A stretch of 32,000 nt of DNA from positions 101,309 through 133,308 of the forward strand of contig JAGWHF010000002.1 in assembly GCA_028866895.1 (NCBI GenBank), written 5' to 3'. Below are positions 27,001 through 30,000 of the stretch, piece after piece. The DNA is from Nitrososphaerota archaeon (GTDB lineage Archaea > Thermoproteota > Nitrososphaeria > Nitrososphaerales > Nitrosopumilaceae). The first letter of the stretch is position 1; each line of letters begins with the position of its first letter. A program made the position numbers.

Positions 27001-30000
27001 ATGGAGTGTAAGTTTTTCAGGGCGTCAAAAGACTTAAACATGTAATAGCCTAGATACAAATACACGGCTATGACATTAGCCTTGGCAAACCTGCCAGAAC
27101 CGCGTCAAACGACGATAATAATGTCTACTACAAAAAAAATTGGTAGACAAAAATGAAAGGAATCGAACTCTTACTACTTGGGGCAGGAGGGCTGGCAGGA
27201 ACGTTTCTGCGGTTCAAGATTACGCAGTCGCCCCTCCTTTGGGGGACTCTTCCCATGAATGTCCTAATAGTTAACATAGTCGGTAGTTTCGTAATAGGAA
27301 TCTTCGCAGTCGTCTCGCAGCAGTGGAACTTGGACTTCAGGTACACGCTACTTGTGGCAGTGGGTTTTTGCGGAGCCCTTACCACCATGTCCTCGTTTGT
27401 ACTTGAGACAAGCAACCTTTTTGACAATCGACAGTTTGCGATAATGGCGGTAAACGTGATTACAAATGTGGGACTTTCTCTTGGATCGGTGATGGGGGGG
27501 AAGGTCATGGCTGCTTCCCTCTTGGCGGGAGGTTGGAGGTAAATGAGGACAATGAAGTCGTGGTGCCTCACCATAAGGATAAAGAAGAACGACAACTTTA
27601 ATGGAAAAAGAACGCACCGCCTGATCCTAGAGGTGCTGAAAAAATCGAACATATCCGGGGCCACCGCGTGGACTGGGGTTGAGGGATACGGCAAGCGTGG
27701 GAAATCCAACTTTCAGATAGAGGGGATATCAGTCAACATGCCGCTCATAATTGAGGCAATCGACGACCTTCAAAAGATCGAATCAGCCCTACCAGAGATA
27801 AAAAGAATTGTAGGGGACAACGGCCTGGTTACACTAAGCGAAGTTGATGTGATCTGACCGTGATTCCTCATGGCTGTGGGTCTGCAAGTACTCCACAAGA
27901 TATTTTACTAGTTGCAATTTCTTACAGGTAAAATGAAGTCAGTCAATTACACCCTCCTTGCAGATGAGTCACTTGCAAAGGATTTAGGTAAGAAGGGTAC
28001 CTCGACCGACCTTGCAATTTATGACAAAAAAGAAACTGGGTTTGTAAGAACGTGGACTCTTCCGACCGGATTTCCTGAGAAGATACAACCACTACTCCAG
28101 GCAATCAACATGGGGGAGTACGTCATATTTCACGTGTCGAGACTGGACAAGTTCACCGGTGAACAGATAGTGGCACTCGACGTCCTAGGGAAGGATAAGG
28201 GTATTCTTTCGCACTCTTATGATGTTGATAGAGAAAAACTTCTCACAATGATAAAGGGTACGGCGGTCGAGCGATACAAACTGGTTGAGATCTCCGACCT
28301 GAAAAAGGAAATGGATGGCCTGCCGGCACTCCCACAAGACGGTGAGACACGCATCCCTATCGACCACTGCTTCGATGTCAAGGGAGTGGGGACGGTAATA
28401 CTCGGTAAGGTGGCAAAAGGAACAGTCAGGGCATACGACAAGCTTAGGCTTTTTCCAAAAGGTGATGAGGTTGTGGTAAAATCAATACAGATGCATGATG
28501 ATCCCGTGGAGATGGCATCCTCACCGGCAAGGGTGGGTCTTGCGGTAAAAGGAGTGCTCCCAAACGATGTTCAAAGGGGCGACCTGCTTTCTACAGGTAA
28601 TGGTCCTCTGGTGTCGCAAGAGATCACCGTGGATTATGCTCAAAGCAGGTTCTTCAGGGATAAGATTGCAGAAAACCAGACATTTCTTATCAATGTTGGA
28701 CTGCAGACAAGAGCTGCAAGAATAATCTCACTCGATCCAATGAAAATCTCGCTTAACAAGCCAGCTGCATTTGAAAAAGGTGATATCTGCGTAATCCTAA
28801 AACCAGAATCCCAAACAATACGGATTGTGGGAAGTGGCCCGATAATTTCCTGAGGAGCAGACCGTATGCATCTTGTCGCACTTCAATCCGCCTCCTTCAA
28901 TATTGACTAAAATACCTCCAAAGGATAAATGTGGCAGGATGAACGGTTTTGATATTGTGGCGTTTGCCTCTTGGTCAGTGATTACGGGGGGGCTCTTTGT
29001 GATTACTGCTCTAGTTTACAAGAAATACGCAGGAGGGGGTAATGATGAACCATATCCGCCTTGAGAAGAAGGGCCTCAGAGGTCTCGCAGTAGCTGAAAG
29101 CTTCAGGGAGTCAGACAAGACTTCGACACTGGCAGGGGTGGTGATGAGGAGGGACTTAGTGATTGATGGCTTTGTCCTAGGCAGTACTACCTTGGAGGGA
29201 GATGATTCAACTGACGAAATCATATCAATGTATGAGAAACTCTCACGACAGGATATTAGTTTTGTAATGGTGTCGGGCCTGATAATCTCGATGTACAATA
29301 TTGTGGATATCAAAAGACTGTGGACCATGCTCAGCGTACCAATCATAGGCGTGACATACGAAGAGTCTGGCGGAATTGAGGCCGCAATAAAGCACCACTT
29401 TCCAGACTCCTACCAGCCAAAAATCGACCAGTATCAGAGATTAGGATCACGGACAAAAGTCTCATTACACACCAACCATGACATTTTTCTGCGCATAGAG
29501 GGATGCAGTATGAATGAGGCAAAGCGGCTCCTTGACACACTTACCATACAAGGTTCAGTACCGGAACCCCTGCGCATTGCACAACTTCTTGCAAAAGCGG
29601 TGCATGATGCAGATAAGTAACTACTTACGTTCTTCCTTGCTTACCATCCACTTACTCTGTGTGAGTCTCGATGACGTGAATTCGATCTGACCTATGACCC
29701 TGTCGCCGCGTCTTACCAGCCCATACTCGTTACGTTCTACCTTGATTATCATTCGTCGCGTCTTGTATCCTCCCTCTATCACCTTGATCTTGAATCTCTT
29801 GCTTGCCTTGATGATGAGTTCCCTTGCTGCTTTGGGATCTCCAATCCATGAATACATCTCAAACGTACCAAAACTTCTGGTTGCGATCTCATGATCGTAA
29901 AGTCTGGCCTCAAACTTCCATTCTGCTTTTTTTGCCTCCTCATTCATCCAATCTACAGCTTGCCGCCCGTAACCTTTCTCTACGCCAAAAGACTCCGAGT

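What the first reader, a model, noticed from the sequence alone, without database searches (positions are those of the whole stretch)
27066..27152. Candidate fluoride riboswitch variant with an inserted hairpin and a translational switch helix upstream of crcB-DUF190
The 90 nt preceding the crcB ATG reproduce the architecture of the crcB-motif (fluoride) riboswitch.
- P1 is GGCU/AGCC, enclosing the loop AUGACAUU. Compare GGCG-AUGA-GGCC-CGCC of the Thermotoga aptamer.
- A 6-bp pseudoknot forms between the loop GACAUU and AAUGUC.
- A short P2 is CGUC-AAAC-GACG.
- The 3' tail AUAAU-AAUGUC-UAC resembles UAAUGACUCCUAC of Bacillus.

Two things are unusual. First, an extra 5-6-bp hairpin (UGGCA-AACC-UGCCA, 27083-27096) is inserted between P1 and the AAC linker. 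Second, the 3' pseudoknot strand can instead form a 7-9-bp helix (27122-27130 with 27141-27149) that ends 3 nt before the start codon.

No U-tract follows, so the design looks like a translational ON switch. That is uncommon in an archaeon whose other genes in this window look leaderless.
Basis: partly seen in the sequence, partly recalled or inferred. Interest (0 to 1): 0.72.

Follow-up and report, generated by a model that had tools for sequence, protein, structure and literature searches.

The report
Ordinary archaeal fluoride riboswitch before crcB
The ~90 bases before the fluoride-exporter gene crcB are a genuine fluoride-sensing RNA switch of a known family. Its "extra" hairpin and its start-site-masking helix are normal features of the archaeal form, so it is a sound but unsurprising find.

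Summary
The Rfam fluoride model RF01734 matches 27057-27134 end to end at 33.3 bits, 0.7 below the curated cut-off of 34 (E 9.6e-8), so default annotation misses it. CrcB and DUF190 follow directly.

I collected 62 related elements from Nitrososphaeria and Bathyarchaeia genomes and 82 from metagenomes. All share P1, the pseudoknot, a hairpin between P1 and the AAC linker, P3, and an 8-10 bp helix. That helix pairs the 3' pseudoknot strand with a GGUAGRC strand next to the start codon. All helices covary. One position covaries three ways (G/C/G in 36, A/U/A in 23), so both alternative pairings are kept, as expected of a switch.

The "inserted hairpin" is not new. The 2010 crcB alignment already annotates an optional hairpin at that site, in sequences I recognise as Pyrococcus and Methanosarcina. 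No oligo-U tract follows the helix in any of 62 relatives, so fluoride-induced unmasking of translation initiation is the likeliest mechanism; this is inferred, not shown. SD-like motifs precede neighbouring genes, so the "leaderless" remark is unsupported.

Verdict: a new member of a known kind; modest interest.

The parts
27033..27040 (+). TATA-like box CTTAAACA, the predicted archaeal promoter. It would place the transcription start a few nt before P1.
   Evidence: A TATA-like hexamer starts 27-35 nt upstream of the first P1 base in most of the 62 relatives (histogram peak at -28 to -33). The close relatives have ATTATAAAT or ATTTAAAAG at the same place. The transcription start itself is inferred.
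27066..27081 (+). P1 stem (27066-69 / 27078-81) closing the 8-nt loop AUGACAUU. Loop bases 27072-77 form the 5' strand of the pseudoknot.
   Evidence: RF01734 alignment. P1 is 98% paired in 62 relatives, with double changes CG>UA and UA>CG: GGUC/GACC in the close relatives L086-L088.
27082..27097 (+). Hairpin between P1 and the linker: UUGGCA-AACC-UGCCAG. This is the optional stem of the crcB motif.
   Evidence: Predicted at -6.3 kcal/mol. 61 of 62 relatives fold a hairpin here, 13-37 nt long, median 16 nt. Four of its 5 pairs show changes on both sides; for example pair 27-42 is CG 23, AU 7, UA 2, GC 1. An optional hairpin is annotated at this site in the 2010 crcB alignment.
27098..27101 (+). 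AACC linker (junction between P1 and P3).
   Evidence: AAC is invariant in alignment A2. It aligns to the conserved AACC of RF01734.
27102..27115 (+). P3 hairpin: CGUC-AAAC-GACG, flanked by a G.A mismatch (27102 / 27115) where most relatives have a G-C pair.
   Evidence: cmscan marks the closing pair as non-standard. The same GCGUC...GACGA is kept in all 9 close-relative loci printed, L081-L089. The inner pairs covary in the family: AU 21 / GC 15 / UA 3.
27116..27129 (+). 3' part of the aptamer: UAAU, then the pseudoknot 3' strand AAUGUC (27120-25), then the tail UACU.
   Evidence: The pseudoknot is 100% paired in 62 relatives, and pair 27073-27124 is GC in 37 and AU in 25. The G/A variation in U(G/A)AU also occurs in relatives and in the 2010 family alignment.
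27122..27149 (+). Expression-platform hairpin: UGUCUACUA (27122-30), an A-rich loop (27131-40), and UGGUAGACA (27141-49). It is mutually exclusive with the pseudoknot and tail.
   Evidence: Predicted at -8.6 kcal/mol. It is 92-95% paired in relatives. Pair 27124-27147 is CG 36 / UA 23 / UG 2. Three-way covariation across 27073 / 27124 / 27147.
27153..27542 (+). crcB, the fluoride exporter and the regulated gene. Its AUG lies 3 nt after the platform helix.
   Evidence: PF02537, 76.5 bits. The protein is 100% identical to an NCBI Thaumarchaeota MAG CrcB.
27543..27857 (+). DUF190 gene. Its AUG directly follows the crcB stop codon (TAA-AUG), and GGAGG at 27535-27539 precedes it.
   Evidence: PF02641, 77 bits; sequence. 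crcB-DUF190 synteny is seen in close relatives.

Best explanation
This is a fluoride riboswitch of the crcB-motif family (Rfam RF01734), in the form common to Nitrososphaeria and Bathyarchaeia. It controls crcB-DUF190 as an ON switch that most likely acts on translation initiation.

Proposed mechanism, with the basis for each step:
1. A TATA-like box about 30 nt upstream starts the mRNA just before P1. The aptamer is therefore the 5' end of a roughly 90-nt leader (inferred).
2. P1, the optional hairpin and P3 fold locally (shown by covariation).
3. Without fluoride, the 3' pseudoknot strand and tail (27122-27130) pair with 27141-27149. This 9-bp hairpin ends 3 nt before the AUG and buries the GGU/AGGUG-type ribosome-binding stretch, so crcB is poorly translated (inferred).
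4. With fluoride, the pseudoknot (27072-77 with 27120-25) and tail are locked in the Mg2+/F- bound aptamer, as in the Thermotoga petrophila structure (established knowledge of the family, not tested here). The hairpin cannot form and the initiation region opens.
5. CrcB is then made. DUF190 may be made by translational coupling, since its AUG directly follows the crcB stop codon and is preceded by GGAGG (coupling is inferred).
For: Identity:
- RF01734 matches full-length at 33.3 bits, E 9.6e-8.
- 25 of 34 related elements tested exceed the cut-off of 34, scoring up to 42.9 bits.
- CrcB and DUF190 lie immediately downstream.

Structure:
- On a MAFFT alignment that was not fitted to any structure, 91% of aptamer cells are paired, against 28-54% for slid controls. 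No shuffle (0/500) reaches the covariation score.
- The result is the same on 62 genome sequences. A count of the nested helices (the pseudoknot was not scored) gives the same result on 82 metagenome sequences.

Switch:
- The platform helix is 94.8% paired in the unfitted alignment.
- Window position 27124 pairs with 27073 in the pseudoknot and with 27147 in the platform. The three columns change together: G/C/G in 36 sequences, A/U/A in 23, A/U/G in 2, G/C/A in 1.

Position of the platform:
- The start codon lies 0-13 nt after the helix in 47 of 62 elements.
- The 3' strand contains GGU in 59 of 62, AGGU in 28 and GGUG in 15.

Energetics:
- The helix is -8.6 kcal/mol, against -4.1 for the bare pseudoknot duplex.
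- Withholding the pseudoknot strands and tail raises the mean unpaired probability of 27141-27155 from 0.39 to 0.60.

Not a terminator:
- No T5 run within 25 nt downstream of the helix in 0 of 62 elements, and T4 in only 2.
- The terminator scan finds nothing at the platform.

The window copy is not decaying:
- Close relatives (CrcB 70-80% identical) keep its particular features and show compensatory changes in P1 and in the hairpin.
Against: - The score is just below Rfam's gathering cut-off, and a default scan reports nothing.
- The window's clade has a G.A mismatch at the P3 closing pair, and most of its members, including the window, have UAAU in place of UGAU.
- The SD-like content of the sequestered strand is weak in this clade: only GGU.
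- How archaeal ribosomes initiate on leaders without a strong SD is not settled.
- No transcription-start, probing or expression data are available.
- Much of the covariation separates a few large clades. The number of independent substitution events is therefore smaller than the cell counts suggest.
- In the bound-state mimic, the freed strand finds weak alternative partners in the coding region.
Confidence: 0.8

Rival explanations
1. The aptamer is real, but the switch acts on transcription (premature termination or attenuation) rather than on translation.
For: Many bacterial fluoride riboswitches, such as Bacillus cereus crcB, are transcriptional. In those, the 3' aptamer strand likewise overlaps a hairpin (PMC2864571; PMC12667848).
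Against: Archaeal intrinsic termination depends on oligo-U (established knowledge). No T5 run lies within 25 nt after the helix in any of 62 relatives, and T4 occurs in 2. The loop and flank are A-rich (0.61 A). The helix is pinned to the start codon (0-13 nt in 47 of 62), which a terminator would not need to be. The terminator scan finds none at 27122-27160.
Confidence: 0.07
2. The aptamer is real, but the downstream hairpin affects mRNA stability or processing, or is merely a folding aid. It would not block ribosome access.
For: Initiation on archaeal leaders lacking a strong SD is poorly understood. The SD-like content in this clade is only GGU. Expression platforms acting through RNase access are known in bacteria, for example lysC (mentioned in PMC12667848).
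Against: The helix always abuts the start codon. Its 3' strand carries AGGU or GGUG in many relatives. Three-way covariation shows selection for the alternative pairing itself. SD-like motifs are used by neighbouring genes.
Confidence: 0.1
3. The window copy is a decaying or non-functional relic, or a chance resemblance, because it falls below the Rfam threshold.
For: It scores 33.3 bits against a cut-off of 34 and is not reported by the default scan. It has a G.A mismatch in P3 and UAAU instead of UGAU.
Against: E is 9.6e-8, and the clade-specific model gives 83.5 bits. The same deviations are conserved in the 9 close-relative loci, with compensatory changes elsewhere. The close clade scores 31.5-36.5 bits, straddling the cut-off. 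G/A at that position is normal family variation. The intact crcB gene sits in the right place.
Confidence: 0.03

Closest known systems
Fluoride riboswitch / crcB RNA motif (Rfam RF01734; Weinberg et al. 2010, PMC2864571; fluoride sensing attributed to Baker et al. 2012)
   Same: P1 with the AUG-containing 8-nt loop; a 6-bp loop-to-3'-strand pseudoknot; the AAC linker; a P3 hairpin; U(G/A)AU followed by CUAC at the 3' end; location in the leader of crcB. The 2010 alignment's SS_cons already includes an optional hairpin between P1 and the linker.
   Different: The score is 0.7 bits under the curated cut-off. The P3 closing pair is G.A. No Nitrososphaeria-type sequence (AUAAUGYCUAC) occurs in the 200 of 438 supplementary files of the 2010 paper that are held and were searched, which include its crcB alignments.
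Archaeal members carrying the optional hairpin: NC_003413 and NC_000961 (Pyrococcus), NC_003552 and NC_007355 (Methanosarcina) in the 2010 alignment; and the Thermococcus kodakarensis riboswitch upstream of TK0513 (PMC4247193; Speed et al. 2018 as cited in PMC8241225)
   Same: An archaeal host and a hairpin inserted at the same site (the organism names for these accessions come from my own knowledge). The T. kodakarensis element is fluoride-responsive and is "presumably regulating the translation" of fluoride-export genes (PMC8241225).
   Different: Those are Euryarchaeota with unrelated hairpin sequences. I could not read Speed et al. 2018, so I did not compare platform structures. Here the platform is defined by comparative evidence only.
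Bacterial translational fluoride riboswitches (Pseudomonas syringae, Burkholderia pseudomallei)
   Same: The 3' aptamer strand overlaps a sequestering hairpin that masks the initiation region, there is no terminator, and fluoride turns expression ON (PMC12667848).
   Different: Bacterial SD-dependent initiation is well established. In this archaeal clade the masked strand is only weakly SD-like (GGU) and the initiation mode is unknown.
Thermotoga petrophila fluoride aptamer crystal structure (Ren et al. 2012, cited in PMC5473149)
   Same: The same core (P1, pseudoknot, linker, P3, tail) that positions backbone phosphates around three Mg2+ ions and F- (PMC5473149).
   Different: To my recollection the crystallised 52-mer has no hairpin between P1 and the linker and no expression platform.

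Membership tests
Fluoride riboswitch (crcB motif, RF01734) | P1 stem closing a loop of about 8 nt that begins with AUG | tested here: met
   GGCU / AGCC around AUGACAUU, 27066-27081. 98% paired with compensatory changes in 62 relatives.
Fluoride riboswitch (crcB motif, RF01734) | Pseudoknot between the P1 loop and a 3' strand that precedes a CUAC tail | tested here: met
   GACAUU 27072-77 with AAUGUC 27120-25, followed by UAC. 100% paired in relatives, with one pair GC 37 / AU 25.
Fluoride riboswitch (crcB motif, RF01734) | AAC(C) linker followed by a P3 hairpin and U(G/A)AU | tested here: met
   AACC 27098-101, CGUC-AAAC-GACG, then UAAU. The closing pair is G.A here, but this is conserved in the window's own clade. 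A instead of G in UGAU also occurs in the family alignment.
Fluoride riboswitch (crcB motif, RF01734) | Reaches Rfam's curated gathering score of 34 bits. This is an operational cut-off, not a structural feature. | tested here: not met
   33.3 bits, E 9.6e-8, full-length match, and nothing at gathering thresholds. Elements at the corresponding position upstream of crcB or its operon in relatives score 29.1-42.9 bits, and 25 of 34 pass. I still file it as a member because every structural feature is met and related elements at the same position pass.
Fluoride riboswitch (crcB motif, RF01734) | Lies in the 5' leader of a fluoride-resistance gene (crcB, eriC-F and others) | tested here: met
   CrcB (PF02537, 76.5 bits) starts 3 nt after the platform helix, and DUF190 follows.
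Fluoride riboswitch (crcB motif, RF01734) | Binds fluoride through Mg2+ and changes gene expression in response | not testable with these tools
   Needs in-line probing or SHAPE with and without NaF, and reporter assays.
Translational (initiation-masking) riboswitch platform | A helix mutually exclusive with the ligand-bound aptamer that covers the ribosome-binding region or start codon, with no terminator | tested here: met
   27122-30 with 27141-49 overlaps the pseudoknot strand and ends 3 nt before the AUG. It is conserved and covarying. No oligo-U.
Translational (initiation-masking) riboswitch platform | Ligand-dependent change in ribosome binding or translation | not testable with these tools
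   Needs toeprinting, in vitro translation, or ribosome profiling with and without NaF.

The most novel reading that the evidence does not exclude
The whole switch, not just the aptamer, is conserved across two archaeal classes, Nitrososphaeria and Bathyarchaeia. It comprises the aptamer, the optional hairpin, and an 8-10 bp helix pinned to the start codon. This would make it a natural start-site or SD-occlusion riboswitch in archaea, where only one natural riboswitch (T. kodakarensis) has been tested and its mechanism is only presumed. It would offer a defined, covariation-backed model for how archaeal riboswitches control expression. The same element also precedes proteins with no Pfam match and an MFS transporter in some relatives, which may be unrecognised fluoride-resistance genes.
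Probability: 0.5. Interest if true: 0.45.

Novelty: new member of a known kind. Interest (0 to 1): 0.25.

Why it matters
The practical point is modest. This clade's fluoride riboswitches straddle Rfam's threshold: 25 of 34 relatives pass, while the window and 9 relatives do not. Default annotation therefore misses about a quarter of them.

The scientific point is that ammonia-oxidising archaea and Bathyarchaeia, both abundant soil and sediment organisms, carry a uniform and complete fluoride switch. Its platform structure is supported by three-way covariation. That gives a clean system for testing how riboswitches regulate genes in archaea. As of 2021, the T. kodakarensis fluoride riboswitch was described as the only natural archaeal riboswitch determined experimentally (PMC8241225).

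Nothing here changes what is known about the riboswitch class itself.

Tried and rejected
- **Upstream ORF.** A 28-codon ORF runs from the conserved loop AUG (27070) to a TGA overlapping the crcB start. It is not conserved (L003 stops after 6 codons), so I treat it as chance.
- **Second copy in the window.** The clade model finds only 27060-27155.
- **Transcription terminator at the platform.** None was found.
- **Leaderless test.** I tried TATA spacing before longest-ORF starts. It is unreliable because true starts are unknown, so I kept only the direct observation of SD-like motifs before a few neighbouring genes.
- **Remnant of the PBP gene.** Relatives have this gene upstream of crcB, but tblastn finds no trace in the window. 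The radical-SAM neighbour is at 22753-23829 on the minus strand.
- **Was the Nitrososphaeria type in the 2010 crcB alignment?** No.
- **Papers not held in the library.** Speed et al. 2018, Baker et al. 2012 and Ren et al. 2012. Statements about them rest on citing papers or on my own knowledge.
- **McCown 2017 supplement.** It is not held, so I could not confirm that their single Thaumarchaeota riboswitch is a fluoride one.
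Full report
**Observation.**
- P1: GGCU 27066-69 with AGCC 27078-81, closing the loop AUGACAUU.
- Pseudoknot: 6 bp, GACAUU 27072-77 with AAUGUC 27120-25.
- Hairpin: UUGGCA-AACC-UGCCAG, 27082-97.
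- Linker: AACC.
- P3: CGUC-AAAC-GACG, 27103-14.
- Alternative helix: 9 bp, UGUCUACUA 27122-30 with UGGUAGACA 27141-49, ending 3 nt before AUG 27153.

The minimum-free-energy fold of 27040-27165 contains all four nested helices. It scores -30.2 kcal/mol against -15.7 +/- 2.8 for shuffles (z = -5.1). The downstream ORFs are CrcB (PF02537, 76.5 bits) and DUF190 (77 bits).

**Rfam.** A whole-window scan at gathering thresholds returns nothing. A sensitive scan of 26950-27250 matches RF01734 over its full length (27057-27134) at 33.3 bits, against a cut-off of 34, with E 9.6e-8. A 13-nt insertion sits after P1, and the P3 closing pair is flagged as non-standard.

**Relatives.** The CrcB protein is identical to one from an NCBI Thaumarchaeota MAG. 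Nitrosotalea and Nitrosopumilaceae proteins are 60-65% identical. I collected relatives in three ways:
- I fetched 80 crcB loci from species-representative genomes: Nitrososphaeria, Bathyarchaeia and two Nitrospirales.
- I fetched 9 loci from close relatives with CrcB 70-80% identical.
- I ran one metagenome scan using a pattern that covers only the 5' half of the aptamer.

I built a covariance model from an unfitted MAFFT alignment of 34 sequences. It finds one element in each of 62 of the 88 genome sources searched, and only one in the window. It finds 82 elements in the 80 metagenome loci, nearly all matching the full model including the platform.

Rfam scores of 34 relatives run from 29.1 to 42.9 bits, and 25 pass the cut-off. 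The window's own clade straddles it at 31.5-36.5 bits.

**Covariation.** Pair counts on the unfitted alignment:

| Measure | Aptamer | Platform helix |
|---|---|---|
| Cells forming a standard pair | 91% | 94.8% |
| Slid controls | 28-54% | 29-46% |
| Shuffles reaching the covariation score | 0/500 | 0/500 |

- The pseudoknot is 100% paired, with one pair GC 21 / AU 13.
- The inserted hairpin has changes on both sides in 4 of its 5 pairs.
- The model-fitted alignments of 62 and 82 sequences agree for the helices scored on them; the pseudoknot was scored on the 34- and 62-sequence alignments only.

The most telling result concerns window position 27124. It pairs with 27073 in the pseudoknot and with 27147 in the platform helix. 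The three columns change together: G/C/G in 36 sequences, A/U/A in 23, A/U/G in 2 and G/C/A in 1. Both alternative pairings are therefore maintained, which is what a switch predicts.

Two cautions apply. Much of this variation separates a few large clades, so there are fewer independent events than cells. And A3 and A4 were fitted to the model's structure.

**The "inserted hairpin" is not new.** 61 of 62 relatives fold a hairpin at this site (13-37 nt, median 16, median -5.0 kcal/mol). So it is the rule in these lineages. The clean Stockholm alignment published with the crcB motif in 2010 annotates an optional hairpin in SS_cons at exactly this position, between the P1 3' strand and the AAA/GAA linker. 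The members carrying it are NC_003413, NC_000961, NC_003552, NC_007355 and NC_011126 (PMC2864571, supplementary file 199). From my own knowledge of these accessions, they are Pyrococcus furiosus, P. horikoshii, Methanosarcina acetivorans, M. barkeri and Hydrogenobaculum. No Nitrososphaeria-type sequence occurs in the 200 of 438 supplementary files that are held and were searched, which include the crcB alignments.

**The window's deviations.** Three features distinguish the window copy:
- a G.A mismatch instead of G-C at the P3 closing pair;
- UAAU instead of UGAU;
- a UACU tail matched by a U.G pair in the platform helix.

The 9 close-relative loci share the G.A mismatch and the UACU tail, and 6 of the 9 also share UAAU (the other three have UGAU). 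They also show compensatory changes in P1 (GGUC/GACC in L086-L088) and in the hairpin. G/A variation at the UGAU position also occurs in other relatives and in the 2010 alignment. The window copy is therefore under selection and is not a relic.

**Mechanism.** A TATA-like hexamer starts 27-35 nt upstream of P1 in most relatives. In the window it is CTTAAACA at 27033-40. The aptamer therefore probably forms the 5' end of the mRNA (inferred).

The platform helix has these properties:
- It ends 0-13 nt before the start codon in 47 of 62 elements.
- Its 3' strand contains GGU in 59, AGGU in 28 and GGUG in 15 of 62. These are partial matches to the archaeal SD consensus GGAGGUGA (my knowledge of the 16S 3' end).
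- No T5 run follows the helix in any of 62 elements, the loops are A-rich, and the terminator scan finds nothing there.

In the window the helix is worth -8.6 kcal/mol, against -4.1 for the bare pseudoknot duplex. The OFF structure therefore wins unless ligand-dependent tertiary contacts hold the pseudoknot. Withholding the pseudoknot strands and tail raises the unpaired probability of 27141-55 from 0.39 to 0.60.

The best-supported reading is fluoride-induced unmasking of the initiation region, that is, an ON switch. Fluoride binding and the translational effect are inferred from the family and from the anatomy. They are not shown here.

**Literature.**
- Fluoride riboswitches are known in archaea. 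A 2017 survey counted one riboswitch in Thaumarchaeota (PMC5473149).
- As of 2021, the T. kodakarensis fluoride element was described as the only natural archaeal riboswitch determined experimentally, "presumably regulating the translation" of fluoride-export genes (PMC8241225; PMC4247193).
- Bacterial translational fluoride riboswitches with sequestering hairpins are established (PMC12667848).
- In the held library, the only paper that mentions both fluoride riboswitches and Thaumarchaeota is that survey.

**On "leaderless".** SD-like motifs precede neighbouring genes: GGAGG at 27535-39, 3 nt before the DUF190 AUG; AGGU before the 27933 AUG; and GGAGG before the 29042 and 30237 AUGs. A long structured leader is therefore unusual only in being a riboswitch. 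It does not conflict with a leaderless lifestyle, which I could not establish for this window.

**Verdict.** This is a real and correctly identified fluoride riboswitch. Both features flagged as unusual are standard: one for the family (the optional hairpin), the other for translational members (the sequestering helix). It is a new member of a known kind, scoring just under the Rfam threshold.

The residual interest lies in the lineage-wide conservation of the complete switch in Nitrososphaeria and Bathyarchaeia. That makes it a good model for the still-untested mechanism of archaeal riboswitches.

Noticed in passing
L001:317-1492 (also L006, L012, L016, L018; metagenome locus L098, element at 2247-2348 on the minus strand): In Nitrosotalea-like genomes the same riboswitch and platform do not sit directly before crcB. 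Instead they precede a 390-392 aa ORF with hydrophobic N- and C-terminal segments and no Pfam match. The stop codon of that ORF lies 7 nt before the crcB start. It is a candidate unknown fluoride-regulated envelope protein.
   Followed up: partly
L005:1412-1501, and the equivalent positions in L007 and L009: Here the riboswitch is followed by an ORF of only about 30 codons before crcB (read in L005). It looks like a deletion remnant of the 390-aa gene.
   Followed up: partly
Metagenome loci L118 (6751-6857, minus strand) and L115 (3997-4108, minus strand); L098 (3226-3325, minus strand); L153 (544-640, minus strand): The same riboswitch type precedes a 416-aa MFS transporter in two loci (PF07690, 157 bits). 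It also precedes proteins of 194 aa and 183+ aa with no Pfam match. L098 carries two riboswitch-led genes about 1 kb apart.
   Followed up: partly
window 26989-27006 (+): A 7-bp hairpin CTCCATC-TCAA-GATGGAG is followed by a T-rich tail, about 27 nt upstream of the TATA-like box. It may be the terminator of an upstream transcription unit. It lies in a roughly 550-nt stretch (26505-27060) containing no ORF longer than 68 aa.
   Followed up: no
window 27535-27545: The DUF190 AUG directly follows the crcB stop codon (GGAGG-TAA-ATG), with an SD-like GGAGG 3 nt upstream. This suggests translational coupling and shows that SD-type motifs are used in this genome.
   Followed up: no
window 22753-23829 (-) and 23935-26504: The radical-SAM gene that lies close upstream of crcB in close relatives, directly or with only a PBP gene between, is 84% identical here but sits 3.2 kb away. 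The PBP (PF01161) gene of the relatives is absent. A Usp gene (26055-26504) and two other ORFs occupy the gap, so the region upstream of the riboswitch is variable.
   Followed up: partly
window 27171-27180: The coding sequence CUUACUACUU early in crcB resembles the platform's 5' strand. In the bound-state mimic it can pair weakly with GGUAG of 27142-46. This is probably chance, arising from Leu codons.
   Followed up: no
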